Positions 1,308 to 19,830 of a DNA stretch of 20,605 nt are shown in pieces. Positions within the stretch are counted from its first letter, which is position 1; every line of letters begins with the position of its first letter. The DNA comes from a bacterium (GTDB taxonomy: Bacteria > Methylomirabilota > Methylomirabilia > CAVQYV01), in assembly GCA_043800755.1 (NCBI GenBank), contig JAZDMQ010000074.1, positions 1 through 20,605 on the forward strand, in the 5' to 3' direction. The notes under the pieces are model-generated. The model searched no databases and was not told the DNA's origin. It was given only the letters and a program-made list of their open reading frames with translations. A program made the position numbers and the translations under genes.

Positions 1308-1691
1308 TCAACCCTGCTCCTGTTCTTCTCTCTCTTCTTTTTCTATCGCCCTCAATTCCTCTTCTTCCAATCCGAAATAATGACCAATTTCGTGGAGCAA
1401 TACCTCCCTGACCTGCTCTCTCATCTCCGCCTCATTCCGGCAGTACCTCTCGATGGGACCCTGGTAGATGGTAATCTGATCGGGCAGGACATTTCCATAC
1501 CAGGTGCCCCGTTCCTTAAGCGGATACCCATGATACAGGCCCAACAGGCTGCTTCTCCGGCCACCTCCCCTCCTGCTTGGGGGAGGCCAGTCCTCCACCA
1601 GGATCTCCACATTTTCCAGCCTCCTGCGAAATTCCCCCGGGAGATCCCGCAGGGCCTGAACAATCAATTGTTGAAAGCGTCTGCGGTCCAT
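1308..1691 (-). CDS. Minimal zincin-like metallopeptidase family protein
   Basis: HEIGHYFG (HExxH), LLGLYHGYP, LPDQITIYQGP; 127 aa. Confidence 0.9.
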   Translation of the reverse strand: MDRRRFQQLIVQALRDLPGEFRRRLENVEILVEDWPPPSRRGGGRRSSLLGLYHGYPLKERGTWYGNVLPDQITIYQGPIERYCRNEAEMREQVREVLLHEIGHYFGLEEEELRAIEKEEREEQEQG

Positions 1692-1694
1692 CCT

Positions 1695-2513
1695 TCATGA
1701 CTTCTCGTCCGAATCGAGGTCAAGGCGCATGTGGTCGTAGGCCGCCAGGACCCGGGTCCCCAACTCCTGCTCGATGCTGGCGGCCAGCTCCCAGGGCTTG
1801 GCCCTCAGCATGGTCATGCCGAAGTGGGTGAGGATGGCCAATTTGGGCCTCCGCGCCCGGATGATCCTTTTGGCGTCTTCCAGGCAGAGATGATCGATCT
1901 CCCGACTCTGCAGCAAGACCACATTGAGGAGCAGGACATCCTCCTCGCCCTCCACCTCCTCCAGCTCGGGGAAATAGCGGGTATCGGAAATCAGGGAGAT
2001 GGTCTTCCCACCCCCCTTGAACCTCAAGGCATAGTTCTCCACCGGATGGAGCAGGCGCAGGGGGACCTCGATGGAGAGCCCACCCATCTGAAAATGCGAG
2101 CCCTCCCGCAAGACCTCCATCCGCTCCACATAGGATCGCAAGTATCCAAAGATGACCCCATCGTTTTCATAGGCATCCTGGGGGGCCAGGACAGCCCCCT
2201 TGGGGTGAAAGCCCCCTTCGGTCATGGCCTCAATCATCACATTGACATCTGCCGAGTGGTCGAGGTGCTTGTGGGTTAGCACAATCGCCGAGAGATGGGT
2301 GGGGTCGAGCCCCAGCCGTTTGGAGGTCAGGTGGACGAGCGCGCCCGGGCCCGGGTCCACATGGATCTGGCTCCCGTCCAGGCTCATCCAGATCCCCCCC
2401 GAGGCCCTGACCTGTTTGAAGACCACGATCCTCGCCCCTCCGGTGCCGAGAAAGATCATCTCCGGGGAGGAGGTGCCTCTTCGCTCCTCATTGTCCTCAG
2501 GGGCTCTCTTCAT
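1695..2513 (-). CDS. MBL-fold metallo-hydrolase (PhnP/RNase Z-like)
   Basis: FLGTGG, VDPGPG, THKHLDH (HxHxDH), ISDT, HL, LTHF, AAYD; 4-nt ATGA overlap with the upstream HAD gene. Confidence 0.9.
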   Translation of the reverse strand: MKRAPEDNEERRGTSSPEMIFLGTGGARIVVFKQVRASGGIWMSLDGSQIHVDPGPGALVHLTSKRLGLDPTHLSAIVLTHKHLDHSADVNVMIEAMTEGGFHPKGAVLAPQDAYENDGVIFGYLRSYVERMEVLREGSHFQMGGLSIEVPLRLLHPVENYALRFKGGGKTISLISDTRYFPELEEVEGEEDVLLLNVVLLQSREIDHLCLEDAKRIIRARRPKLAILTHFGMTMLRAKPWELAASIEQELGTRVLAAYDHMRLDLDSDEKS

Positions 2514-3262
2514 CCAAACCTCTCCAACCGCTCCAGGATCGCCTCCAGTTGGGACAGATCCTCGATGATTCCATCCGGCTGAACATCAGCCCTCTTCTCT
2601 TCGCCCCGATCCAGGTGAATGGCCTTCATCCCTACGCCTTTGGCCCCACTCACATCGCAACGCAAATCATCCCCCACATGCAGGGCTCGGCTCGGCCTGA
2701 CCTTCATCGCATCCAGGTGGTGGAGGAAGATCCTGCAATCGGGCTTCCGCACCCGGAGCTCATCGGAGAAGGTCAGGACATCGAAGAAGGAGAGGATCTC
2801 TAATTGCTCCAATACCGTCTTCAGGATGTAGCCCGGCGTTCGTCCCGTATTGGAGATGATCCCTACCCTGCACCCTGATTCCTTCACCCGCTGGAGGATC
2901 TCCTTCGCCCCAGGGCAGAGCACAGGGGGGGCCTGAAGCAGCGGAGTCGCATAAGCCTTCTCCAGATCCTCCAGGAGTTTCTCTTCCAGGCAGAGGGACC
3001 GATCCGGGCCCAGGCATTCCAAAAAGATCAATATCTGCTCTCCGGGGCTGATATCCACATCCTTCGCCCAGATCCGCATAATACGCTGGCCCGACTCATC
3101 GTAGGCATGGTGGATCGCCTCCAGGGACAGGGAGATTCCCCGAGCGGCCAGTACCTCCCGGATCCCATCCTGTCGGATTTCCCTGGCCTTCTGCAAACCC
3201 TCAGGGGTATCGAGGACCAGAGTCTGCCAATAGTCGAAGGTAATCGCGTCTAAGGCCCCCAA
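2510..3262 (-). CDS. HAD-superfamily hydrolase (subfamily IA)
   Basis: Motif I ITFDYWQTL, motif II ISNT, motif III RKPD, motif IV HVGDDLRCDVSGA; TTG start after a purine-rich RBS. Confidence 0.9.
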   Translation of the reverse strand: MGALDAITFDYWQTLVLDTPEGLQKAREIRQDGIREVLAARGISLSLEAIHHAYDESGQRIMRIWAKDVDISPGEQILIFLECLGPDRSLCLEEKLLEDLEKAYATPLLQAPPVLCPGAKEILQRVKESGCRVGIISNTGRTPGYILKTVLEQLEILSFFDVLTFSDELRVRKPDCRIFLHHLDAMKVRPSRALHVGDDLRCDVSGAKGVGMKAIHLDRGEEKRADVQPDGIIEDLSQLEAILERLERFG

Positions 3263-3338: not shown

Positions 3339-4625
3339 TCAGGCGAAGAGGGACATCTGTCCCTGTTCTCTCCCCCCTGCCGGCGATTCTTCTCGTCCCT
3401 CCCCTTCTTCACTATAGATGTCGACCTTGCCATAGACCCCATCGTGACCAGGGAGGATGCGCAATCTTCCCTCGCGGACCCGCAAGATCCCTTCCAGGAT
3501 GCGAGGGGTGCAGAAATTGGCCAGATCCGCCGGCGACAGGTCGAGGAGGATGTTGAATTCCGACCCTCCGTGGGAGATCATCCTCTGATACTCCTTCTCG
3601 ACCGCCGCGGTCTCCACCCCCTGCTCCAGGGCCGCGGCGATGATCTCTTCCAGGGGGACCAGATGGACCGCCGGGATGCCCCCCGGAGGCATGATCCCTG
3701 AAGGGCGGTCCGCCAGGGAGTCCACTCGATTCATGACGCCTACCGTCAACCGCTTCTTACAGACCGGGCAGACGCCATTGTTTCTTTTGGTCTCCGCGGG
3801 AGAGGAGATCACCCCGCAGGCGCGATGCCCGTCATAGTGGTACTTCCCCTCTTCCGGATAGAACTCAATGGTGAAGAGGAGCTTCCCTCGATCCTTCCTC
3901 CGGATCGCCTCGCACATCCCCTGATAGGTCGGCTCTCCGGCGAAGACATTGGCCTCCCTCCCAATGCGGCTGGGGGAGTGGGCATCGGAATTGGAAATCA
4001 GGGTAATGGAATCCAGGGCTGAGAGGCGCCAGTTCATCTCCGGGTCAGAGGAGAGCCCGGTCTCGATCGCATAGATGAACTTGGATTCTGCACCAAAGCA
4101 CTCCTCCAGCGAATCGAACCCGGAATTGGACCCGAAGAGAGAAAACCACGGGGTCCAGGCGTGGGCCGGGATCAGAAGACACTCCGACGAGATATCTAGG
4201 ACGATCTTCACCAGATCCTTGACTGGAAAACCGAAAGTCGGACGGCCATCCGCGGAGAGCCTTCCCATCTTTCCCAGGCGCACATTGATCCTTTCGGCGA
4301 CCTCGAAATTGGGGGCGATGATGAGGCTATGGATCTTGCGGGTCCTTCCCCCCTCGGAAAAGATGTTGCTCACCTCGGCAGTGAGGATAAAATAAATGCG
4401 GTATCCTCCTTCGGTAAGGGCCAGCAGGCCATTGGACTGTGGCTCTAATCTCGCCTTCAGCTCCGCGAAATAAGTGGGATGGGTAAAATCTCCGGTCCCC
4501 AACACTTTAATCCCTTTGATCTCCGCCCATTTGGCCAGGGTCTCTGGCTGCATCTCCCGGCTGGTGGCCCGACTGTATTTGGAATGGACATGGAAATCGG
4601 CAATGAAGCGATAGGCTTCCGTCAT
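3339..4625 (-). CDS. Endonuclease Q family protein (PHP domain + Zn ribbon), stand-alone
   Basis: ADFHVHSKYSRATS, GTGDFTHP, IPAHAWTPW, IETGLSSD, SNSDAHS, GREAN, EEGKYHYDGHRACG...CPVC, VGVMNRV, PGHDGVYG; ends in QMSLFA. Confidence 0.92.
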   Translation of the reverse strand: MTEAYRFIADFHVHSKYSRATSREMQPETLAKWAEIKGIKVLGTGDFTHPTYFAELKARLEPQSNGLLALTEGGYRIYFILTAEVSNIFSEGGRTRKIHSLIIAPNFEVAERINVRLGKMGRLSADGRPTFGFPVKDLVKIVLDISSECLLIPAHAWTPWFSLFGSNSGFDSLEECFGAESKFIYAIETGLSSDPEMNWRLSALDSITLISNSDAHSPSRIGREANVFAGEPTYQGMCEAIRRKDRGKLLFTIEFYPEEGKYHYDGHRACGVISSPAETKRNNGVCPVCKKRLTVGVMNRVDSLADRPSGIMPPGGIPAVHLVPLEEIIAAALEQGVETAAVEKEYQRMISHGGSEFNILLDLSPADLANFCTPRILEGILRVREGRLRILPGHDGVYGKVDIYSEEGEGREESPAGGREQGQMSLFA

Positions 4626-5197
4626 ATCAGCAAGGACTCATAGACGAATTGCCGCCCGCCCTCGCTCAACAACTCTTCCCGGCGCTGCACCAATTGCAGC
4701 TTGTAGAGATTCGCCAAACGGGTGCTGCTGGTATTGATCTCCAGATCCTGCGCGTCAGCGAGATCCCGGGCCGTGATCCGTCCCTTACTCATCACCTCGT
4801 CCAGGGTCTCCTTCAGGTAATTGTTGAGCACCCCCAGGACCTGCCACCTCTTATCCTCATTTAGAAAAAAGGCCGCCAGGTGCTTGCGTTCGAGGGCAAC
4901 CTCGATATTCTCCGTCTGGGTGGCGTTGAGGCCCCGGAGAAGAAAGTAGCGGCTCCCGTATTCCCCAGCATTGAGGCGAGAGATGAGCTTGGCCACGATC
5001 TCATCGGCACAAGAGTAATCCAGTATCCCGACTCCTTTGAAGTCAAGGATGACCACCTCGCTCTCGGGCTCTGCGTGTAATCGCTCCTCTAAAGCCTCTC
5101 GCATGCGCCTGCCCGTCTCTCGGGTGACGAGATTACGAGAGCCATTGACCAGGAACTCCTTCATAACCTCTCGTAGAGAGAAAACCCTCTTCCTCAA
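4622..5197 (-). CDS. STAS-like domain + C-terminal winged-helix protein (CapS-like putative repressor); start uncertain (TTG 5197 preferred, track gives 5248)
   Basis: LVTRETGRRMR...VVILDFKGVGILDYSCADEIV (STAS/DUF4325-like, Ser at the SpoIIAA phospho-site position); C-terminal ITARDLADAQDLEINTSSTRLANLYKLQLVQRREE...GGRQFVY is wHTH-like. Stop overlaps the endoQ start (ATGA). Confidence 0.8.
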   Translation of the reverse strand: MRKRVFSLREVMKEFLVNGSRNLVTRETGRRMREALEERLHAEPESEVVILDFKGVGILDYSCADEIVAKLISRLNAGEYGSRYFLLRGLNATQTENIEVALERKHLAAFFLNEDKRWQVLGVLNNYLKETLDEVMSKGRITARDLADAQDLEINTSSTRLANLYKLQLVQRREELLSEGGRQFVYESLLI

Positions 5198-5315
5198 GCC
5201 ACATCCCTTGAGGGCTTCCACAGCAAGCTGGGAAGGCCTCAAATGCAAGATCTCTGAACCATCCTATCTGATCGCTGCCCCGCAAAACGACGGCCGATTT
5301 CACCCGATCTGCGTT

Positions 5316-5334
5316 TTCAATGGATTCAATTGAA
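5316..5334. promoter_or_regulatory. Candidate operator: TTCAAT-N7-ATTGAA inverted repeat containing the perfect palindrome TTCAATTGAA
   Basis: TTCAAT 5316-5321, ATTGAA 5329-5334, nested palindrome 5325-5334; lies immediately downstream of the minus-strand -10 box. Confidence 0.55.
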
Positions 5335-5337
5335 CAC

Positions 5338-5366
5338 AAACTATACGGATGAAAGCGAGCTGTCAA
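5338..5366 (-). promoter_or_regulatory. Sigma70-type promoter for the STAS-wHTH/endoQ operon
   Basis: Minus strand TTGACA (5366-5361), 17-nt spacer, TAGTTT (5343-5338); alternative TATAGT at a 15-nt spacer. Confidence 0.65.
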
Positions 5367-5414
5367 GAAAATAATGCAGAGGATGCTGATGGTTTTTTTG
5401 AGTGGTCTGGTGAA

Positions 5415-6383
5415 TCAGGAATGCATCTCGGGCAGGATGATGGAGATGAGGGTTCCGGGAAAAGGGGGAAGGTTGACTTGATGCTGAGCAGAGGAGTCCC
5501 AGGGCGGAGGCAGGACCAGGCGCGCAGTCCCCGAGCGGATGCTGATCTCCCCCTTCCATCTTTGCACCAGCTTCCTGACCTCGCTCAGGCCGTGGCCCCG
5601 CCCTAGGTCAGAAAAACGAGAGGCCCCTTCAAACAGGGCCAGCCAGATCGCTCGAAAGTCGTTCCAGTTCGTCCCGAAGGAAGAGGCATATTTGTCGGTC
5701 AGGGACTGCCGAATGCCGATCCCCAGATCCATCACCGCGATCTTGACCACATTCTTCCCCAACCGCCTTCCAAAAAAATACTTTTGGATGCAGACGAATC
5801 CCATGTCCTGGCTATGCTCGGGGATATTCTGGCAGACCTCGGAGAGGGCCACCACAAAGAGATCGATGGCCCGGGAGTCATAATTCAGATTGATCCGCAG
5901 GATAGACTCCGCCCTCCTCTCCACCTCCTCCACGATGGCATGAATGTCATAGCTGCCTTTGATCGGGGTAATCTCCAGCAGCACATCGGAGCGGGGATTG
6001 CGCAGGAATCTCCCCTCTGGCCAGGGGATGGAATGCATGATCTGGTAGATCCCGGAGTTGGCCTTGAAGAAGTCCATCCGGTCCATATATTTGACGACTT
6101 CCTCCCTCCGCGGGAGAGAGACCCGGGGCGAGATCTCGTGATCCCTCAGATAGCGCCCGATCTCCAAGAGGCCGATCATGCCATAGGGGTCGACGAACCT
6201 CACCCGGCCCAGATCAACCTCCCAGGCGGAAAAGCCCCCGTCATGCCTCAGATCGAGTTGCTGGATCAGAGACTCCAGGCTGGATTCCTGGAGAAAGGGC
6301 GGGGAGAGAATCTTTTGATTAAATCCTCCCTCAATCAGCTCGGATTCACCCTTCAAAGGTAAGGACTCATTATTCACCACCAC
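5415..6383 (-). CDS. N-terminal STAS-like + GHKL/HATPase protein (anti-sigma-type Ser kinase, CapK-like)
   Basis: VDLGRVRFVDPYG (STAS-like), KYMDRMDFF, N-box SEVCQNIPEHS, G1 AVMDLGIGI, G2 GRGHGL, ISIRSG, FPGT; no His-phosphoacceptor or TM segment seen. Confidence 0.85.
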   Translation of the reverse strand: MVVNNESLPLKGESELIEGGFNQKILSPPFLQESSLESLIQQLDLRHDGGFSAWEVDLGRVRFVDPYGMIGLLEIGRYLRDHEISPRVSLPRREEVVKYMDRMDFFKANSGIYQIMHSIPWPEGRFLRNPRSDVLLEITPIKGSYDIHAIVEEVERRAESILRINLNYDSRAIDLFVVALSEVCQNIPEHSQDMGFVCIQKYFFGRRLGKNVVKIAVMDLGIGIRQSLTDKYASSFGTNWNDFRAIWLALFEGASRFSDLGRGHGLSEVRKLVQRWKGEISIRSGTARLVLPPPWDSSAQHQVNLPPFPGTLISIILPEMHS

Positions 6384-6468: not shown

Positions 6469-7308
6469 TCAGCCCTTGTGGACCTGGTAGAGGCAACAAA
6501 GAGCGCCCCCCAGTCCAAGCAGCCCGGCCACTGACTTGATCAGCCAGCCGAAAAGAGGGACCAGGCCGATCAACGACAGGACGATGAGTCCCCACAAGGT
6601 CTCCCAAAATATGGGTTGATTCGGTTTCCTCAGGGCCGCGGTTATCCTTTTGCCGATGAGCTGGGCCACGGCGATGTACCCTATTAGGGTGGCGCCGACG
6701 ACGAAAATCATCTCCAGCGGGATGAGCACGATGCCCACGATCGATATCGCCAGCAGGATGGCCAGCGGCACAATCAGCACCATCCCCAGCAGGCCCCACC
6801 CAATGACCTTGGCGGTTTTTTCCTCTATCGTCGCGGAGATGAGTCCCACTGGCCTGGGGATCAGGGAGACAATCAACAGGGCCAGCGCCATAAAACCGAT
6901 CGCGGCAATGATGGAGAAAAGGCGAAAAGCCCAGAAGAAGCCGGGCCAGTTTCCCTGAAAGACGGAGGCCACCACGGAAGAGACGCCCGGGAGAGGAACC
7001 TCAACCAGATTACCTCCGACCTGTGCCCCTTCCTCCTTTTCGATCGCTCCTCCAATGGAGACCACATTCCCGCCCACGGTGGCGCTGGGGCCCAGGGAGA
7101 CGGAACCCGCCACCGCCACCACATTGCGCTCTACTGCCCCATCTACCGTCACATCGCCGCCAATCGCCACCGCATCGCGCACCTTCATCCCCTCTTCAAT
7201 TGCCACATCGCCGCCGAATTTGACCAAGTCCCTGGTTTCTGCCCCAGCCGCCGCCCCCAGGCCCAGGAACAACCCCACCATCAGAGGACCGACCAGCCAC
7301 CTTTCCAT
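6469..7308 (-). CDS. Membrane protein with an N-terminal Gly/Val-rich beta-helix (polymer-forming/bactofilin-like) region and about 4 C-terminal TM helices
   Basis: Signal-peptide-like MERWLVGPLMVGLFLGLGAAAGA; repeats VKFGGDVAI / VAIGGDVTV / VAVAGSVSL / VSIGGAI; hydrophobic C-terminal half. ATG 7308 follows AAGGAG. Confidence 0.75.
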   Translation of the reverse strand: MERWLVGPLMVGLFLGLGAAAGAETRDLVKFGGDVAIEEGMKVRDAVAIGGDVTVDGAVERNVVAVAGSVSLGPSATVGGNVVSIGGAIEKEEGAQVGGNLVEVPLPGVSSVVASVFQGNWPGFFWAFRLFSIIAAIGFMALALLIVSLIPRPVGLISATIEEKTAKVIGWGLLGMVLIVPLAILLAISIVGIVLIPLEMIFVVGATLIGYIAVAQLIGKRITAALRKPNQPIFWETLWGLIVLSLIGLVPLFGWLIKSVAGLLGLGGALCCLYQVHKG

Positions 7309-7535
7309 CTTCCGCCTCTCCTTCCCTCTCAAGACCTCAATCGGAGCTCGCATCCCGCAGATCTCCTCGGGAATTCCATTATAGCCTATCTCACTCTCCT
7401 ATCTGAACTCATTTCTTTAAGAAAACGAAAAAATGCCTATTTTTGCACAGGAGCCACGGTTGGCAAAGGAGTTCGACTTTTGCTCGTTGACGATAGAGAA
7501 GAGGCATGATAGATACTTGCCCAAGGAACCACAAG

Positions 7536-13143: not shown

Positions 13144-14187
13144 TTGAACACCAAAGAGAGGATTCTTGCTGCCCTGGAATGGGGCGAGCCGGATCGGGTG
13201 CCGCTCACCATCTACGATTGGATGCTGCCCCGGGGCATGACCGAGCGGAGGCTGCGCGAATCGGGCGTGGGCCTGATCACGCGTCTGCCTGCCCATCGCG
13301 TCCAGCATCGTCAGGTCGAGTTCATTACCCGCGAGTACCAGCAAAACGGCCACAAGCTCACCAGGCGGACCATCCATACGCCCGTGGGCGAGGTCTGGCA
13401 GACCCTGGAGCCAGACGAGGCCTATGAAACCTCCAACTGGATCAAGGAGCACTTCATCAAGGGGCCCGAGGATTATCGGGTGATGGAGTTCTACTTCGAG
13501 GACGCCATCTACCGCGATAACTACGCCGCCATCCGGGAAGCCCAGCGCAGGATGGGCAATGACGGCATCGTGATCGTGCGGGTGGCGAAGGGAGCCATCC
13601 AGGAGATGCTCTATCAGATGATGGGCATGGAGCGCTTCGCCTTCGACTACCACGAGCGGCGCGACCTTTTCGATTCCCTGTACTCTGCCATGGTGAGACG
13701 GTATGGGGAGCTTTACGATCTCGCCGCGGGGTCGCCGGCGGAGATCCTCCAGCTGGCCGATAACATCACCAGCGATGTGGTGGGAAGGGAGCGCTTCCGG
13801 AACTATCTCATGCCGGAGTACCGGAGGCTAAAGCAGCGCCTGGTCGGGTCTGGTAAGAAGCTGGCGGTGCACATGGACGGCCGGCTGAAATCCTTGAAGC
13901 AGGAGATTGCCGCGGCCGAGTTCGACATCCTCGAGGCGATGACCCCCTCCCCGATGGGCGACGTCTCGGTGCGGGAGGCCCGCGAGGCCTGGCCGGACAA
14001 GGCGCTCTGGATCAACTTCACCAGCTCGGTGCACATCGAGCCCCCTGCCGCCATCGAGGCCCACACCCGGCAGCTTTTGCAGGAGGCAGGAGGAAAGCGC
14101 GGCTTCGCCATTAGCGTGACCGAGGATGCCCCGGTCGAGGCCCTGGAGAAGAGCCTCACGGTCATTTCTTCCGTGCTAAACGAGTAA
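13144..14187 (+). CDS. Uroporphyrinogen decarboxylase (URO-D/MtaA-like) family protein of unknown substrate
   Basis: MNTKERILAALEWGEPDRVP, TPVGE, EHFIKGPEDY, MGMERF, LADN, VHMDG; TTG start after AGGAGG. Confidence 0.85.
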   Translation: MNTKERILAALEWGEPDRVPLTIYDWMLPRGMTERRLRESGVGLITRLPAHRVQHRQVEFITREYQQNGHKLTRRTIHTPVGEVWQTLEPDEAYETSNWIKEHFIKGPEDYRVMEFYFEDAIYRDNYAAIREAQRRMGNDGIVIVRVAKGAIQEMLYQMMGMERFAFDYHERRDLFDSLYSAMVRRYGELYDLAAGSPAEILQLADNITSDVVGRERFRNYLMPEYRRLKQRLVGSGKKLAVHMDGRLKSLKQEIAAAEFDILEAMTPSPMGDVSVREAREAWPDKALWINFTSSVHIEPPAAIEAHTRQLLQEAGGKRGFAISVTEDAPVEALEKSLTVISSVLNE

Positions 14188-14294: not shown

Positions 14295-15608
14295 TTACTC
14301 CAGGATCGCCTGATAGGTCAGGACCCGGAACTTCTCATCCAGATCCAGATGGCGGTTGGGACGGATCTGGGTCAGTATGATGCCGATCAGGTCCTCTTTA
14401 GGATCGACCCAGAATCGGGTGTAGAAGTAGCCGCTCCAGTTGTATTCCCCTTTCGATTCGATCCGGCCGGACCGCTCGGGATCGGTCAGCACCGCGAAGC
14501 CTAGGCCGAACTTATAGTCCGGATCGCGGAGGAAGACCTCCAGATCGCCGATGTGATTTCGGGTCATCAGTGCCACGGTCTCTCGGCCCAGTAATCTCAC
14601 CCCCTCCAGCTCCCCTCCATTCAACAACATCTGCAGGAATCGCACATAATCTGCGGCCGTGGAGGCCAGGCCTGCACCGCCGGAGAAGTAGGTCCGCGGA
14701 CCCCGGTAGTGCCAGCTGGACGAGAAGACCTCCGAGCCCATCCTCACCGGCTCTTCCGGGAGCTTGCTAACCCCTCCCTGTCCATTGGGCGTATAGACCG
14801 CCGAGAGACGGCCCAGCTTCTCCTGGGGCAGGAAGAAGTGGGTATCCTCCATGCCCAGCGGCTTAAAGATGCGCTCCTGGAAGAATTGGTCCAGGGGCAT
14901 CCCGGAGACCACCTCCACCAGGCAGCCCAGCACATCGGTATTCAGGCCGTACTCCCAGGCCTCTCCCGGTTGGTTCATCAGAGGCAACTTGGCCAGCTTG
15001 CTCACGCCCTGGGCGATGGTCCCCTCGGTCTGCACCAGGCCGTCGGAGACGCCGGCCTGCGCGTAGAGCTTGCCCAGATGTCTGCGCCCCCAAAAACCAT
15101 AGCTGATCCCCGAGGTGTGGTCCAGGAGGTGGCGGATGGTGATCTCCCGTTTCGCCGGGACCAGGTGGTACTGCCCCTCCTGGTCGCCGTCCGAGATCAG
15201 TACCGCGGGGTTCTTGAATTCCGGAAGGTACTTGGAGAGGGAATCCTTCAGCAGGATGCGGCCCTCCTCCAACAGCATCATCACCGCCACCGAGGTGATG
15301 GGCTTGGTCATGGAGGCGATGCGAAAGATGGCCTCATTGCACATTGTCTTGCCCTCGTCCATCAGGCCAAAGCTCTTGCAGTAGGCAATCTTGCCATGTC
15401 GCGCGATCAGGGCCACCGCCCCGGAGATCTGGTTTCGATCCACAAAATCCTGCATCACCCTGTCAACCCTCTCCAGGCGCTCCGAGGAGAGTCCCACCTC
15501 CTCCGGTGAGGCGCTGGGCAGTCCCTGCGCGAAGACAGCGGGAACGATCAGTAAGCAAATCAGGCAACACGGCAACAGCGTTCTGAAACCGGTTTTCAAC
15601 CTCTTCAT
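14295..15608 (-). CDS. Secreted serine hydrolase, beta-lactamase/class C-like family
   Basis: Signal peptide (…PAVFA-QG), FRIASMTK (SxxK), LLDHTSG, PGEAWEYG, IFKPLGMEDT, SGGAGL, WSG; ATG 15608 after GGAGGAGG. Confidence 0.92.
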   Translation of the reverse strand: MKRLKTGFRTLLPCCLICLLIVPAVFAQGLPSASPEEVGLSSERLERVDRVMQDFVDRNQISGAVALIARHGKIAYCKSFGLMDEGKTMCNEAIFRIASMTKPITSVAVMMLLEEGRILLKDSLSKYLPEFKNPAVLISDGDQEGQYHLVPAKREITIRHLLDHTSGISYGFWGRRHLGKLYAQAGVSDGLVQTEGTIAQGVSKLAKLPLMNQPGEAWEYGLNTDVLGCLVEVVSGMPLDQFFQERIFKPLGMEDTHFFLPQEKLGRLSAVYTPNGQGGVSKLPEEPVRMGSEVFSSSWHYRGPRTYFSGGAGLASTAADYVRFLQMLLNGGELEGVRLLGRETVALMTRNHIGDLEVFLRDPDYKFGLGFAVLTDPERSGRIESKGEYNWSGYFYTRFWVDPKEDLIGIILTQIRPNRHLDLDEKFRVLTYQAILE

Positions 15609-15662
15609 TTCGGCCTCCTCCATGCGGGCTTGAACTCCAATCTTCGCCCCGGCTCCTTTTCC

Positions 15663-15747
15663 TTGACAGCCGGCTCTCGATCGGGTATCGGTGTACAAGA
15701 TCGGTCTTGCACCCAAGACCGATAACAGAGCCCGGCCCATTTGTCAA
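15663..15747. promoter_or_regulatory. Quasi-palindromic divergent control region with a central perfect hairpin
   Basis: TTGACA-N17-TATCGG on both strands facing each other; ATCGGTCTTG-CACC-CAAGACCGAT (15700-15723). Confidence 0.4.
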
Positions 15748-15781
15748 TCCGATTTGGCTGGCCTCTGAGCGGAGAAACGCC

Positions 15782-16909
15782 ATGTTGCCCAAGGAACGCA
15801 TGATCGCCGCATTGCAGCACCGGGAGGCGGATCGCGCCCCGGTCGGCGAGACCGGGGCGGACTGGGAGATCACGGACCGCGTCCTCGGGCGCCCGACCTA
15901 CTACCGCTCGAAGTGGCGGGAGTGGGTCGCCGAATGGGAGGGTCGGCGCGAGGAGATCGTCCAATCCTACAAGGCCGACATCGTCGACCTAGCCCGCAGG
16001 CTGGAGTGGGACTTCCTCGTGGTACCCCTGGTGCCGGCGCGCCGGAAGGAGTACGAAAGGCCGGAGATGCTCGGGGAGTTCAAGTGGCGCGACCGATCGG
16101 GAAAGGTCTGGCAATACTCCCCGGAATCCGGAGGCCACCCGCTGCTGTTGGAGGCACCGCCCATGGGCGTGGACGATCTCCTCGTGCCGGAGCGGGTCGA
16201 GGTGGACGAATCGCGTCTGGAGGCCATCGCCCACACGGTGAAGGAGATCGGGGGCACCCACTTCGTGTTCGGCCGCCCCCCGGATGGCACCTTCCCCTGG
16301 ATCGAGACGGTGGGGATGGAGGAATTCCTCATCCGCATGGTGACCGATCCCGGGTTCGTGTCCAAGGCGGTCTCTGCCAGCCTGAAGACGGCCCTCGCCT
16401 GGACCGAGGCGATCTGCGATCTCGGCGTGGACGGGATCCTGGTGGGCACCGACTACTGCGACAACCGGGGGCCGCTCATGGGGCCCCATTACTTCCGCCA
16501 GTTCGTCCTGCCTGCCCTGGCCCAGATGTCCCAGACGGCCCGCCAGAAGGGAAAGTTCTTCGTGAAGCATACGGACGGCAACACCTGGTCGATCCTGGAT
16601 GATTTCGTGGAAGCCGGGGTGGATGGCTGGCAGGGAATCCAGCCGAGCATCGGCATGGACCTCAAGCAGCTCAAGGAGAAATACGCGGGCAGGCTCTGTC
16701 TTTTCGGAGGGGTGAACAACGAGACCTTGATCGCGGGCACGCCCCAGGAAGTGGTGGAGGAGGTCAAATACGCCATTCGCCATGCCGCGCCCGGGGGCGG
16801 CCTGGTGCTCACCTCAGGCAACACCCTCCAGGTGGGCACCCAGTACGACAACTACATGGCCATGCGCTCCGCGGCCCGGGAGTTCGGCCGGTATCCAATC
16901 GGTTGGTGA
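15782..16909 (+). CDS. Second URO-D family protein of unknown substrate
   Basis: MLPKERMIAALQHREADRAP, GMEEFL, GTDYCDNRGPLMGP, KHTDGN, GIQP, LKEKYAGRLCLFGGV, PGGGLVLTSGN; ATG 15782 after GGAG. Confidence 0.88.
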   Translation: MLPKERMIAALQHREADRAPVGETGADWEITDRVLGRPTYYRSKWREWVAEWEGRREEIVQSYKADIVDLARRLEWDFLVVPLVPARRKEYERPEMLGEFKWRDRSGKVWQYSPESGGHPLLLEAPPMGVDDLLVPERVEVDESRLEAIAHTVKEIGGTHFVFGRPPDGTFPWIETVGMEEFLIRMVTDPGFVSKAVSASLKTALAWTEAICDLGVDGILVGTDYCDNRGPLMGPHYFRQFVLPALAQMSQTARQKGKFFVKHTDGNTWSILDDFVEAGVDGWQGIQPSIGMDLKQLKEKYAGRLCLFGGVNNETLIAGTPQEVVEEVKYAIRHAAPGGGLVLTSGNTLQVGTQYDNYMAMRSAAREFGRYPIGW

Positions 16910-17138: not shown

Positions 17139-17789
17139 CTACTGCGCGGCAGTGTCTGGATAAGCGTCTGAGGGAGAGATCGCCTGCTTCGCCAGAGCGA
17201 AGTCGTCAAGGATGTCCTTAACCCTCCCTGAAAGCTCAATGTCTCCTGAGGTCGCGCGATCGGTCCAGTAGGTGCCCTTGATGGGAGCTTCTTTCTTCGA
17301 TGGTACATAGAGCAGCATAGCGCCGTGATGGATCGGACTGCCGCCCCTCACTGCAATGGAAGGCTCGTTCCTATACACGGCGGCAATGGTGGAGGATCCG
17401 TCGGCAGCGGGGGTGACTTGGGCTCCGAGAAGATGAGAAACCGACTGACTTGTCATCAGCCTCATCCGCAGGGAAGTAAGAGTTTGGTGGACTGCAAGGA
17501 AGCCTTCAAGGGGCGACTCCGCACTAGCTGTTCCGGGGCTTGTCCAAGTGGTTCTCAATGACGCGCGCCATGTGCCCGAGATATCTGGAATCTTGACAAG
17601 CCAGCCTTTGAAGGCTGGAAGCTTCCAGAGCCAACGATCAAACGCCACCGCTATGATGACGGCAATGCCATTGGCGAGGGAGGGGTAGCGGAGCCAAGTG
17701 CTCTCCACGGCTACGCCATTGGCTATTAGCACGACCCCGCAGACTGCAAAGGCCAGGTAGACGAGAGCGGTGGTTTGAGTCTTGTTCAT
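17139..17789 (-). CDS. cap15: CBASS Cap15-like effector (2 TM + beta-barrel, SMODS-associated)
   Basis: Two N-terminal hydrophobic helices, FDRWLWK, PDISGTW, VHQTL, TSQSVS, YRNEP, SPIHHGA, GTYWTDRATSG; ATG 17789 with GAGGT RBS overlapping the cyclase stop. Confidence 0.88.
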   Translation of the reverse strand: MNKTQTTALVYLAFAVCGVVLIANGVAVESTWLRYPSLANGIAVIIAVAFDRWLWKLPAFKGWLVKIPDISGTWRASLRTTWTSPGTASAESPLEGFLAVHQTLTSLRMRLMTSQSVSHLLGAQVTPAADGSSTIAAVYRNEPSIAVRGGSPIHHGAMLLYVPSKKEAPIKGTYWTDRATSGDIELSGRVKDILDDFALAKQAISPSDAYPDTAAQ

Positions 17790-17796
17790 GGCTACC

Positions 17797-18687
17797 TCAC
17801 TCGAAGCCAACGTAGTCCCAGGCTGCTGAGATGAATTCGTGGGCCTGCTGGCGGGTCCAAGGCTGACCAGTTCGGAACAGGTACTTCATCTTGTTGACTT
17901 CTCGCCATTCAGTGCAGCCCGAGTCTGCGCTGGTGTTGTTAAAGAGATGGGCAAGAGCCCAGCGGACATCGGAGGTATAGGTGCTATGGCCGAATCCTTC
18001 GTTGGGGACATTCCAAAGGAGGCATTCGATGAGGAAGGAGGGTGCTTCGCCAGCTGAGGCGTAGCCTTCATCGGCCATCTTGTTGCCCAAACGCTTGAGT
18101 ATCCTCACGATGGCCTTGAACCTTCGGCCTGTGGCGTCATTCTTCTGTACTCCGTTGGCGTAATTCTGCTCCGGCCAATTTACAGTGAGGGAACCGCCAT
18201 CCGGCAGGAATGCGGCTCCCTTGAGGTATGAACCATACTTGCGATAGTAGCGGTACTCGAAAGCCGGGAGCACGTCCGCGTCTACCCGGTAGGTGTTGTG
18301 GTGGATGTCGAACGCCTTCTTGCCGCGTCGGACGGAGCCGGCACCGAAGTAGGAGACAAGTGCAGCTTGAACATCGCCCTTGAAGTCTGCATAGGGATAT
18401 GATGCGGGAGTGGTGAAATCAAAGTCGGCGGGCGTCGTGCCGTCGGGGATGTGGTAGAAGAAGCTTTCGGTGCACATGATGCATACGTCGACATCGCTGT
18501 CGGCCCGGACGTTCGTGCGGTTGCGATAAGAGCCTTGTGGGAAAACGACCCGCGACCTGGAGGCCAAATCAGCCCACGAGTCCGCTGCTTTCCTTATGGC
18601 TCTCTCGGCGTTGTCGCACTTGTCCTGCTCGGTCTTGCCGGGCGGCTGAGCCCAGCTTGCGAAAGTAGGTTCCCAGTCTGGTGACAC
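17797..18687 (-). CDS. cdnE: cGAS/DncV-like nucleotidyltransferase, CdnE-like (CBASS cyclase)
   Basis: WAQPP, QGSYRNRTNVRADSDVDV (GS...DxD), VDADVLPA, NWPEQNYANGVQKN, RFKAIVRILK, PSFLIECLLWNVP, EVNKMKYLF...QPW; GTG start after AGGGGAGG. Confidence 0.93.
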   Translation of the reverse strand: MSPDWEPTFASWAQPPGKTEQDKCDNAERAIRKAADSWADLASRSRVVFPQGSYRNRTNVRADSDVDVCIMCTESFFYHIPDGTTPADFDFTTPASYPYADFKGDVQAALVSYFGAGSVRRGKKAFDIHHNTYRVDADVLPAFEYRYYRKYGSYLKGAAFLPDGGSLTVNWPEQNYANGVQKNDATGRRFKAIVRILKRLGNKMADEGYASAGEAPSFLIECLLWNVPNEGFGHSTYTSDVRWALAHLFNNTSADSGCTEWREVNKMKYLFRTGQPWTRQQAHEFISAAWDYVGFE

Positions 18688-19512: not shown

Positions 19513-19830
19513 TCATCTACCCTCTTCGATCTGCCCCCTCCGTCTCCACTCCCGGTCATAGATCTTCCCGTTCTTGATGTACCCCCTCGGCTCTCCGTCA
19601 CGATCGTAGACCCGCTCGCCCCTGATCTGATACTTTAGCCGCCAGTCCTCATCATAAACCCGATCCCCCTGGATTCTTCCCTTGGGCTCCCAATTCCGGT
19701 CATAGATTTTGCCATCGCTCACGTGGGCCTTGAGGTTCCAATCTCGATCATAGATACGGAGATCCCCTGCCCAGGAGAGGGAGTTCCACAGAATGGTGAT
19801 GAGGAAAAGAATGAGGATTGCCTTCGTCAT
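19513..19830 (-). CDS. Secreted small protein with five 16-aa (I/V)YD.(D/N/E)(W/G) repeats (beta-flower-like)
   Basis: Signal peptide ending SWA-GD; repeats LRIYDRDWNLKAHVSD / GKIYDRNWEPKGRIQG / DRVYDEDWRLKYQIRG / ERVYDRDGEPRGYIKN / GKIYDREWRRRGQIEE. Confidence 0.8.
   Translation of the reverse strand: MTKAILILFLITILWNSLSWAGDLRIYDRDWNLKAHVSDGKIYDRNWEPKGRIQGDRVYDEDWRLKYQIRGERVYDRDGEPRGYIKNGKIYDREWRRRGQIEEGR

What the first reader, a model, noticed from the sequence alone, without database searches (positions are those of the whole stretch)
3339..6383. Partner-switching kinase + STAS-wHTH repressor pair wired to a DNA-repair nuclease: candidate LexA-independent damage-response system
Seen: (i) a soluble STAS-like+GHKL protein whose own STAS has Pro at the phospho-Ser position (FVDPYG); (ii) a STAS+wHTH protein retaining the Ser (ILDYSCAD); (iii) its stop overlaps the endoQ start; (iv) a promoter with a palindrome lies between the two regulators. 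Known: SpoIIAB/RsbW-type GHKL kinases phosphorylate that STAS serine. From memory and not verified here, pairs with this architecture (CapK/CapS) were reported as ssDNA-activated kinase/repressor modules upstream of anti-phage operons. Inference: here the module sits among housekeeping genes with no sigma factor nearby and controls endoQ and downstream hydrolases, so it may be a phosphorylation-based SOS-like switch for DNA repair. It might also act in trans on the CBASS about 11 kb away.
Basis: partly seen in the sequence, partly recalled or inferred. Interest (0 to 1): 0.85.

Follow-up and report, generated by a model that had tools for sequence, protein, structure and literature searches.

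The report
CapK/CapS damage switch driving endonuclease Q
A kinase and repressor pair of a recently described type that senses DNA damage sits directly in front of a DNA-repair nuclease gene here instead of a phage-defence operon, so this bacterium may switch on repair through phosphorylation.

Summary
Window 5415-6383(-) encodes a STAS+GHKL protein. 4622-5248(-) encodes a STAS+winged-helix protein with an invariant D-Y-S serine, and its stop overlaps (ATGA) the start of an intact endonuclease Q homolog (3339-4625). The pair belongs to the CapK/CapS kind (Chambers et al., EMBO J 2026, PMC13373217). The repressor matches solved CapS structures 9Z72 and 9Z71. The kinase matches a CapK locus listed in that paper. 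A fold of the pair places Ser79 against the kinase N-box (0.79; best control 0.00).

New here:
- It is a large clade without the N-terminal HTH domain.
- The clade has its own operator, TTCAATTGAA, just after a TTGACA promoter downstream of capK. It is present in the window and in 13 of 13 related loci from several phyla.
- What follows the operator varies by subclade: endoQ (NC10 lineage), class II ribonucleotide reductase (Nitrospinota lineage), or restriction-modification and other nucleases.

The endoQ link is therefore not unique to this genome, but it is lineage-restricted. Control of the CBASS genes 11 kb away has no support, because the window holds no second operator. Damage induction, ssDNA activation and LexA independence are untested inferences. 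Verdict: a new variant of a known kind, of moderate interest.

The parts
5415..6383 (-). capK-like gene: STAS-like domain (about residues 23-110) plus SpoIIAB/RsbW-type GHKL kinase domain (about 140-320). No N-terminal HTH domain. GHKL N-box E182/N186.
5361..5366 (-). -35-like hexamer TTGACA of the capS promoter
   Evidence: TTGACA (TTGACT in L013) lies at the same relative place in 12 of 13 related loci.
5340..5345 (-). -10-like hexamer TATAGT, with a 15-nt spacer after the -35
   Evidence: Not called by the consensus scan, which needs a 16-18 nt spacer.
5325..5334 (.). Putative CapS operator: perfect palindrome TTCAATTGAA, 5 nt after the -10 hexamer
   Evidence: An exact copy lies at the equivalent place in 13 of 13 related loci.
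5316..5320 (-). Extra TTGAA half-site, 4 nt downstream of the palindrome
   Evidence: The same arrangement occurs in L001, L002, L005, L007, L009, L010, L011 and L012.
5208..5242 (-). 12-nt inverted repeat in the capS leader (or in the N-terminal extension, if the 5248 start is used). It ends just before the probable start at 5197.
   Evidence: Function not examined.
4622..5248 (-). capS-like gene: STAS domain with acceptor Ser79 (Ser62 if the start is at 5197) plus C-terminal winged helix. Predicted repressor.
3339..4625 (-). endoQ: endonuclease Q homolog with its PHP metal ligands intact. Its start overlaps the capS stop.
1308..3262 (-). HAD hydrolase (2510-3262), MBL-fold hydrolase (1695-2513) and Zincin_1 protein (1308-1691). 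They may be reached by read-through from the capS promoter; whether they belong to the unit is not shown.

Best explanation
This is a chromosomal CapK/CapS-type regulatory module whose controlled gene is a DNA-repair nuclease. A CapS-like dimer binds TTCAATTGAA (plus the neighbouring TTGAA), which overlaps the start of transcription of the capS promoter. That represses a capS-endoQ transcript, so CapS autoregulates itself and endoQ is co-expressed through the overlapping stop and start codons. The CapK-like kinase, when activated, phosphorylates Ser79 in the CapS STAS domain. By analogy with canonical CapK, the activator is single-stranded DNA produced by damage processing. Phosphorylation breaks the CapS dimer, frees the operator and raises EndoQ, which nicks DNA 5' of deaminated or abasic sites.

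Shown here: homology, domain content, the conserved residues, gene overlap, the conserved operator, and the recurrence of the link in NC10 relatives. Inferred: DNA binding by CapS, phosphorylation, the ssDNA signal, damage induction, and whether the three downstream hydrolase genes are included.
For: - CapS-like protein against solved CapS: 9Z72 (V. cholerae) E 3.8e-8 over residues 36-207; 9Z71 (E. roggenkampii) E 4.2e-4. Ser79 falls in the column that is Ala in the S58A mutant chain and Ser in 9Z71 (PDB identities).
- CapK-like protein against the pSHV1 'ATP-binding protein' that precedes a CapS and a Bil operon: BLASTP E 6e-14. That species is listed in Dataset EV2.
- Against a Nostoc plasmid pair followed by an E2/ThiF/JAB protein: E 4e-30.
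- The fold search places the GHKL domain with SpoIIAB (1tid_C, TM by target 0.68) and RsbW (6m37_C, 0.68).
- Predicted complex: score 0.79 against a best control of 0.00. The mark was reached by 116 of 157 solved complexes and 2 of 215 mismatched pairs. Runs agree in at least 92% of contacts, and the partner pLDDT is at least 87. CapS 75-79 touches CapK 174-189.
- N186, E182 and the G-boxes are invariant in 22 of 22. D77-Y78-S79 is invariant in 21 of 21.
- Operator: exact TTCAATTGAA after a TTGACA promoter in the window and in 13 of 13 loci L001-L013. There are 15 copies against 0.275 expected.
- capS-endoQ overlap. Same order in L001 and L002.
- 6 of 16 NC10-type EndoQ clusters share their longest-contig length with an NC10-type CapS or CapK cluster, against 1 of 104 for more distant EndoQ clusters (my comparison).
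- EndoQ metal ligands H12, H14, E84, H99, H156, D214 and H216 are conserved.
- What follows the operator in relatives is DNA-related: RNR in 2 loci and restriction-modification or nucleases in 5.
- The mechanism of canonical CapK/CapS was read in sections 7-9, 11, 12 and 14 of PMC13373217.
Against: - Nothing was measured. All steps after gene content are by analogy.
- This clade lacks the HTH domain of the described CapK.
- Its STAS domain did not align to the pSHV1 CapK; the BLASTP match covers residues 94-317 only.
- The residues reported to bind ssDNA (W68, K237, K239 of E. roggenkampii CapK) could not be mapped, so the signal could differ.
- The AF2 model of the kinase is only moderate: mean pLDDT 65.9, pTM 0.46.
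- The complex prediction may reflect memory of the SpoIIAB-SpoIIAA structures (caveat stated).
- The window's promoter has a 15-nt spacer and was not called by the scan.
- There is no second, 'wide' operator as in the canonical system.
- The endoQ link appears only in the NC10 subclade. EndoQ homologs at about 65% identity are very common in other bacteria and show no such link in the fingerprint comparison.
- Only 14 loci could be surveyed.
Confidence: 0.62

Rival explanations
1. The pair is a CapK/CapS-type autoregulated module, but it answers a signal other than ssDNA or DNA damage. This clade has no HTH domain and a diverged STAS domain. endoQ would then be co-expressed for another reason.
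For: The STAS region does not align with a listed CapK. The HTH domain is absent in the roughly 299-aa family. In one relative (L012), RND efflux genes lie between capK and capS.
Against: In L012 the efflux genes lie upstream of the operator, so they are not under it. Every identified gene that follows the operator acts on DNA or dNTPs: endoQ, RNR, restriction-modification, nucleases. Deleting the HTH domain had no effect in the canonical system (PMC13373217 section 11).
Confidence: 0.15
2. The EndoQ homolog acts here as a phage-defence nuclease, for example against phage DNA carrying uracil or other unusual bases. On this reading capKS-endoQ is one more CapKS-controlled immune operon rather than a repair switch.
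For: 348 of 443 canonical capKS pairs precede immune operons. In 5 of 13 relatives in this clade the operator is followed by restriction-modification or defence-type nucleases. EndoQ cuts at uracil, xanthine and abasic sites (PMC5961232, passages).
Against: The gene sits in conserved housekeeping synteny in the NC10 relatives: amidase, epimerase, then HAD, zincin and RlmN. No PADLOC model hits it. EndoQ homologs are very widespread chromosomal genes, with over 8000 candidates scored. GC content does not mark an island there.
Confidence: 0.1
3. The adjacency has no regulatory meaning. endoQ has its own promoter inside capS, and the capKS pair controls only itself or an unlinked target.
For: No transcript data exist. 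The link is confined to one lineage.
Against: The 4-nt stop/start overlap leaves no intergenic space, and it is kept in L001 at 79-83% protein identity. RNR follows capS within about 20-80 bp in two other loci. No other operator exists in the 20.6-kb window.
Confidence: 0.1

Closest known systems
CapK/CapS (Chambers, Rani, Min, Villa, Corbett; EMBO J 2026, PMC13373217; outline and sections 7, 8, 9, 11, 12, 14 read, plus Dataset EV2 part 1 of 4 and keyword searches)
   Same: A STAS+GHKL kinase gene is followed immediately by a STAS+wHTH repressor gene. The DxS acceptor serine and the GHKL Asn are conserved. An AT-rich palindrome overlaps the promoter between the two genes. Both proteins show detectable sequence homology, and the predicted kinase-substrate pose is the same.
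   Different: There is no N-terminal HTH domain. The operator is TTCAATTGAA rather than TTAA half-sites. There is no capS-downstream intergenic promoter or 'wide' palindrome, because the target gene overlaps capS. The target is a repair nuclease (or RNR in relatives) rather than Bub, CBASS, Thoeris and the like. The hosts are NC10, Nitrospinota, Nitrospirota and Thermodesulfobacteriota, and keyword searches of Dataset EV2 found no 'NC10', 'Methylomirabilis' or 'Nitrospi'. In some relatives the controlled genes lie between capK and capS.
SpoIIAB/SpoIIAA and RsbW/RsbV partner-switching modules
   Same: The GHKL kinase fold and a STAS substrate with a serine two residues after a conserved Asp.
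   Different: No sigma factor is bound or released. The STAS protein itself carries the DNA-binding domain. The kinase has its own non-phosphorylatable STAS domain. No phosphatase gene lies nearby among the ORFs scanned.
CapW/BrxR, CapH+CapP, and (recalled, not checked here) the WYL regulators PafBC and DriD
   Same: Regulators that turn on adjacent or damage-response genes without LexA, on sensing ssDNA or DNA damage. For CapW and CapH+CapP this is as summarised in PMC13373217.
   Different: The protein families are unrelated (WYL domain, or HTH plus metallopeptidase). None of them uses phosphorylation.
Endonuclease Q (PfuEndoQ 5ZB8/7K30; Bacillus pumilus EndoQ)
   Same: End-to-end alignment at E about 1e-50. 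All seven listed PHP-site residues and the lesion-pocket residues T, E, G, L, N and D are conserved.
   Different: The TIGR00375 score is 177 bits, below its cutoff of 326.6. The first of the four zinc-site cysteines is His267. No EndoQ has been reported under CapKS-type control: 'endonuclease Q' and 'EndoQ' occur 0 times in the CapK paper.

Membership tests
CapK | STAS domain followed by a GHKL (SpoIIAB/RsbW-like) kinase domain | tested here: met
   HATPase_c and HATPase_c_2 hit 22 of 22 family members; STAS and STAS_2 each hit 16 of 22. Foldseek: SpoIIAB and RsbW, TM by target 0.68.
CapK | N-terminal HTH domain (described architecture is HTH-STAS-GHKL) | tested here: not met
   Family members are about 299 aa and start directly at the STAS domain. 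No HTH hit was found. In the paper, deleting the HTH domain had no effect. No HTH hit was found in the listed pSHV1 CapK either.
CapK | Sequence homology to a CapK of Dataset EV2 | tested here: met
   BLASTP E 6e-14, 26% identity over residues 94-317, against the pSHV1 protein upstream of CapS and a Bil operon. The species is listed. I assumed it is the same gene; this was not checked by IMG id.
CapK | Catalytic GHKL asparagine (N218 in E. roggenkampii) | tested here: met
   N186, within the CQNIPEHS motif, is invariant in 22 of 22.
CapK | Activation by ssDNA; W68, K237 and K239 groove | not testable with these tools
   No canonical E. roggenkampii CapK sequence was available to map these residues, and no DNA docking was possible.
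CapS | STAS domain plus C-terminal wHTH, homologous to solved CapS | tested here: met
   phmmer against 9Z72 E 3.8e-8 (residues 36-207) and against 9Z71 E 4.2e-4.
CapS | Conserved acceptor serine on the second STAS helix | tested here: met
   Ser79 aligns with the Ala of the S58A chain and with a Ser in 9Z71. The 2-residue numbering offset is my inference. Ser79 is invariant in 21 of 21 and lies next to the kinase N-box in the predicted complex.
CapK/CapS system | capK immediately followed by capS | tested here: met
   Met in the window and in 8 of 13 clade loci. In L007, L011 and L012 other genes lie between them. In L005 and L009 no capS was found in the stretch held.
CapK/CapS system | Palindromic CapS site overlapping the promoter between capK and capS | tested here: met
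   TTCAATTGAA follows a TTGACA promoter in the window and in 13 of 13 loci. The sequence differs from the canonical TTAAaTTAA. Binding was not measured.
CapK/CapS system | Second ('wide') operator in a promoter downstream of capS | tested here: not met
   There is no intergenic space, because capS and endoQ overlap. The only TTCAA-N(0-14)-TTGAA matches in the window lie at the capS promoter.
CapK/CapS system | Followed by a phage-defence operon | tested here: not met
   The next gene is endoQ, which has no PADLOC hit. The paper itself reports 95 of 443 pairs without a known immune operon.
Endonuclease Q | PHP-domain metal ligands (Pfu H8, H10, E76, H84, H139, D193, plus H195) | tested here: met
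   H12, H14, E84, H99, H156, D214 and H216 align with them.
Endonuclease Q | Cys4 zinc-binding domain | tested here: inconclusive
   C270, C286 and C289 are conserved. The first Cys is replaced by H267, which could still bind zinc.
Endonuclease Q | Curated family score (TIGR00375) | tested here: not met
   177.3 bits against a cutoff of 326.6. Close homologs are nevertheless named 'endonuclease Q family protein' by NCBI.

The most novel reading that the evidence does not exclude
In NC10 and Nitrospinota-type bacteria, the CapK/CapS switch is not an immune-operon controller. It is a native, phosphorylation-based DNA-damage response. ssDNA activates the kinase, which inactivates the repressor, and that directly induces repair (EndoQ) or dNTP supply (class II ribonucleotide reductase). 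It would parallel the LexA/RecA SOS system or replace it. The mobile, defence-linked CapKS modules described in 2026 would then be offshoots of this older housekeeping circuit, or the reverse.
Probability: 0.3. Interest if true: 0.75.

Novelty: new variant of a known kind. Interest (0 to 1): 0.55.

Why it matters
CapK/CapS was described in 2026 as a controller of phage-defence operons. Its authors left open whether some targets serve general stress responses. This window and its relatives give concrete cases where the same switch sits in conserved chromosomal context in front of a base-damage endonuclease or a ribonucleotide reductase. That would make it a damage-response regulator in poorly studied phyla, among them the nitrite-dependent methane oxidisers of NC10. 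The 10-bp operator is conserved across phyla, which gives a direct handle. Scanning complete genomes for it would define the regulon, and it makes reporter and binding assays simple. The loci where restriction-modification genes sit between capK and capS also suggest that the promoter-operator after capK acts as a docking point for varied DNA-related genes.

Tried and rejected
- Direct sequence search of the kinase against solved structures, both as a single sequence and as a profile, gave nothing significant.
- A profile-profile comparison of the kinase STAS domain with the CapS STAS domain was not significant. It was used only to line up the D-x-x motif.
- PADLOC gave only a weak DrmA N-terminal hit for the kinase and nothing for endoQ.
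- NCBIfam gave no family for the kinase.
- The consensus promoter scan missed the capS promoter and found no terminator between endoQ and the HAD gene. Folding that gap gave z = 0.30, so no structure.
- Rfam found nothing in the window.
- Trans control of the CBASS genes was rejected on the operator scans. The nearest 2-mismatch sites are at chance-like frequency: 12 found against a mean of 6.8, and 4 of 100 shuffles reach 12.
- The upstream 294-aa gene was considered as part of the system and rejected. It is a DUF8173/bactofilin-like membrane protein. It is conserved upstream only in NC10 relatives; no tblastn hit to it was found in the other loci.
- One comparison failed on my coordinate error and was not repeated.
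Only one genome-collection scan was allowed, and it returned 14 loci. Parts 2-4 of Dataset EV2 were only keyword-searched.


Full report
**What is in the window**

On the minus strand the genes run in this order:
- a DUF8173/bactofilin-like membrane protein (6469-7353);
- a STAS+GHKL protein (5415-6383, P0001);
- a 166-bp intergenic region;
- a STAS+winged-helix protein (4622-5248, P0002);
- an endonuclease Q homolog (3339-4625, P0003);
- after 76 bp, a HAD hydrolase, an MBL-fold hydrolase and a Zincin_1 protein, which overlap or nearly abut one another;
- RlmN.

A CBASS cyclase (17797-18687) and a Cap15-type 2TM effector (17139-17810) lie about 11 kb away. The Pfam scan of the 21 main ORFs found no sigma factor.

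All four are present.
- FVDPYG and ILDYSCAD are in the translations.
- The capS stop and the endoQ start overlap as ATGA.
- The intergenic region carries TTGACA, 15 nt, TATAGT, then 5 nt later the perfect palindrome TTCAATTGAA (5334-5325), and 4 nt after that a further TTGAA.

There are two nuances. The consensus promoter scan did not call this promoter, because it needs a 16-18 nt spacer. And when the Asp of the two STAS motifs is lined up (a non-significant hhalign match), the column of the CapS serine is Tyr67 of the kinase, with Pro66 one position before. The kinase's own STAS domain has no Ser or Thr there either way.

**What the two regulators are**

I read its outline and sections 7, 8, 9, 11, 12 and 14. 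I also read part 1 of 4 of Dataset EV2 and keyword-searched the whole file. Its main points:
- Phosphorylation breaks the CapS dimer and releases it from TTAA-type palindromes in the capS promoter and in the promoter of the downstream operon.
- 348 of 443 capK-capS pairs precede immune operons.

P0002 matches the solved V. cholerae CapS (9Z72, E 3.8e-8, residues 36-207) and E. roggenkampii CapS (9Z71, E 4.2e-4) (PDB identities). Ser79 falls in the column that is Ala in the S58A mutant chain and Ser in 9Z71. Equating this column with S58 and S54 needs a 2-residue tag offset, which I inferred. D77-Y78-S79-C80 is invariant in 21 of 21 homologs.

P0001 has no sequence match in the PDB. It does match other proteins:
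- It aligns with the 'ATP-binding protein' that precedes a CapS and a Bil operon on Sphingobium herbicidovorans pSHV1 (BLASTP E 6e-14, residues 94-317). That species and system are listed in Dataset EV2.
- It matches a Nostoc plasmid pair followed by an E2/ThiF/JAB protein more strongly (E 4e-30).

The AF2 model of P0001 is of moderate confidence (mean pLDDT 65.9). Its GHKL part resembles SpoIIAB and RsbW (TM by target 0.68). Pfam STAS models hit 16 of 22 family members.

A fold of the pair supports binding. The score is 0.79 against a best control of 0.00. The mark was reached by 116 of 157 solved complexes and 2 of 215 mismatched pairs. Runs agree in at least 92% of contacts, and the partner pLDDT is at least 87. 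CapS residues 75-79 lie against kinase residues 174-189, which hold the invariant E182 and N186. Because SpoIIAB-SpoIIAA complexes are solved, this pass may show likeness only.

**A distinct clade**

- The word-index search found 2443 relatives of P0001. The 109 listed hits at about 52-59% identity are nearly all 299 aa and begin at the STAS domain.
- The exhaustive profile search found 2957 representative clusters at E<=1e-3, 980 at <=1e-10 and 161 at <=1e-30. Most of the full-length ones are 280-310 aa.
- The described HTH domain is therefore absent here.
- Keyword searches of Dataset EV2 found no 'NC10', 'Methylomirabilis', 'Nitrospi', 'reductase' or 'nuclease'.

**The operator**

In the 13 loci with at least 52% identity (L001-L013), an exact TTCAATTGAA lies just after a TTGACA (TTGACT in L013) promoter-like element.
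- In 12 of them it is 45-250 bp downstream of capK.
- In L012 it follows three efflux genes and precedes capS.

Across all 14 loci there are 15 exact copies in 154,056 bases. Block shuffles give a mean of 0.275 and a maximum of 3. Eight loci also carry the TTGAA half-site 4 nt further on, as the window does. The site lies between the -10 hexamer and the first transcribed bases, the usual place for a repressor. It resembles the canonical 'narrow' palindrome TTAAaTTAA in style but not in sequence.

**What follows the operator**

| Loci | Source | Order after the operator |
|---|---|---|
| Window, L001, L002 | L001 and L002 are two contigs of one NC10 MAG; kinase 74% identical | capS, then endoQ |
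| L004, L013 | a Nitrospinota MAG and an unclassified bacterial MAG that groups with it in the tree | capS, then class II ribonucleotide reductase within about 20-80 bp |
| L003 | Desulfobacteraceae | capS, then an Mrr-domain protein, a DrmC-like PLD nuclease and a PifA/QatA-like KAP NTPase |
| L005, L007, L009, L011 | various | a type II methyltransferase and an Mrr-type endonuclease; capS lies after them in L007 and L011 |
| L006, L008, L010 | various | contig ends after capS |

L014 (38% identity) has no capS in the stretch held. A maximum-likelihood tree of the kinases groups the loci by what they carry, with full support for the endoQ, RNR and restriction-modification subclades. The restriction-modification subclade spans Bacteroidota and Nitrospirota on short branches, which suggests a mobile cassette (L002 left out as a near-duplicate of L001; the four plasmid rows sit on long branches).

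**How far the endoQ link goes**

L001 and L002 share the whole neighbourhood with the window (amidase, epimerase, membrane protein, capK, capS, endoQ; L001 also HAD, zincin and RlmN). tblastn found no MBL gene in L001.

As a proxy for more contigs, I compared the 'longest contig' lengths listed for protein clusters.
- 6 of the 16 EndoQ clusters at 72% identity or more share a length with an NC10-type CapS or CapK cluster: 3939, 6821, 7545, 3666, 4326 and 153340.
- Only 1 of the 104 more distant EndoQ clusters does (1307), and that contig is too short to hold both genes.

This is indirect, but it indicates that the pair and endoQ share contigs in several NC10-lineage genomes. EndoQ homologs at about 65% identity are abundant in Thermodesulfobacteriota and show no such sign (only the best 120 hits of each list could be compared).

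**The nuclease**

P0003 aligns end to end with PfuEndoQ (E about 1e-50). The residues that coordinate the two catalytic zinc ions in PfuEndoQ, and His195, are all conserved as H12, H14, E84, H99, H156, D214 and H216 (Pfu residues from passages of PMC5961232; positions). Most pocket residues are conserved as well. Three of the four zinc-site cysteines are kept, and the first is His267. The protein is therefore probably an active endonuclease that cuts 5' of deaminated or abasic sites.

**Most likely mechanism**

CapS represses a capS-endoQ transcript from the operator. CapK, activated by a DNA-derived signal, phosphorylates Ser79 and lifts the repression. The signal is most likely ssDNA, because every identified gene behind the operator in this clade acts on DNA or dNTPs.
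- Shown here: homology, conserved residues, gene overlap, operator conservation and recurrence.
- Inferred: DNA binding, phosphorylation, the signal, and damage induction.

Read-through into the HAD, MBL and zincin genes is possible, since the gap holds no terminator, but it is unproven.

**What is not supported**

- Action on the CBASS genes. The window holds no other site with <=1 mismatch and no spaced TTCAA..TTGAA pair elsewhere. The 2-mismatch sites are near chance frequency.
- 'Partner-switching' is a misnomer for this module.
- 'LexA-independent' and 'SOS-like' could not be tested with one window.

**Novelty**

The kind of system has been in print since February (preprint) and June 2026. 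A full-text search found no paper that combines CapK or CapS with ribonucleotide reductase or endonuclease Q, and the CapK paper holds neither term. What is new is a large HTH-less clade with its own operator conserved across phyla, and its wiring to repair and dNTP-supply genes in conserved chromosomal context. I rate it a new variant of a known kind, interest 0.55.

Noticed in passing
L007:1507-8342, L011:3751-9119, L009:8929-13839, L005:2355-4578: In one subclade the capS-type promoter and operator directly after capK are followed by a large type II methyltransferase and an Mrr-type endonuclease. capS comes only at the end of that block (L007, L011). This would be a restriction-modification system placed between the kinase and the repressor and apparently under the operator. 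The kinase ORF is N-terminally shortened in L011 (218 aa).
   Followed up: partly
L012:8001-16576: An outer-membrane factor, a HlyD-type adaptor and an AcrB-type pump lie between capK (N-terminally short, 280 aa) and the operator-capS unit. This looks like an insertion that split the pair.
   Followed up: partly
L004:9837-12173 and L013:9753-12158: A class II ribonucleotide reductase (with a TSCPD domain) follows capS within about 20-80 bp in a Nitrospinota MAG and in an unclassified bacterial MAG that groups with it in the tree. The two loci also share a conserved stretch of about 100 bp upstream of the capS promoter, whose meaning was not examined.
   Followed up: partly
window 17139-18687 (-): A two-gene type I CBASS: a cyclase (PADLOC PDLC00801, E 4e-123) and a Cap15-like 2TM effector (PDLC00694, E 2e-59). 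GC content falls to about 0.50-0.55 from 18 kb to the window end, which suggests an acquired island. No regulator gene was recognised next to it.
   Followed up: partly
window 6469-7353 (-): A 294-aa membrane protein with a bactofilin-like/DUF8173 N-terminal part lies directly upstream of capK. It is conserved there in the NC10 relatives (64% identity). It is probably unrelated to the switch.
   Followed up: partly
window 5208-5242: A 12-nt inverted repeat (92% complementary, 11-nt loop) lies in the capS leader and ends just before the probable TTG start at 5197. It could affect translation initiation.
   Followed up: no
window 13144-14187 (+) and 15707-16909 (+): Two URO-D-like (uroporphyrinogen decarboxylase family) genes flank a serine beta-lactamase-family gene (14295-15740, -). 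These are possibly methyltransferase-type URO-D paralogs.
   Followed up: no
window 19513-19830 (-): A small ORF with beta-flower domain hits (PF21784 E 7e-9) lies in the low-GC stretch beside the CBASS genes.
   Followed up: no
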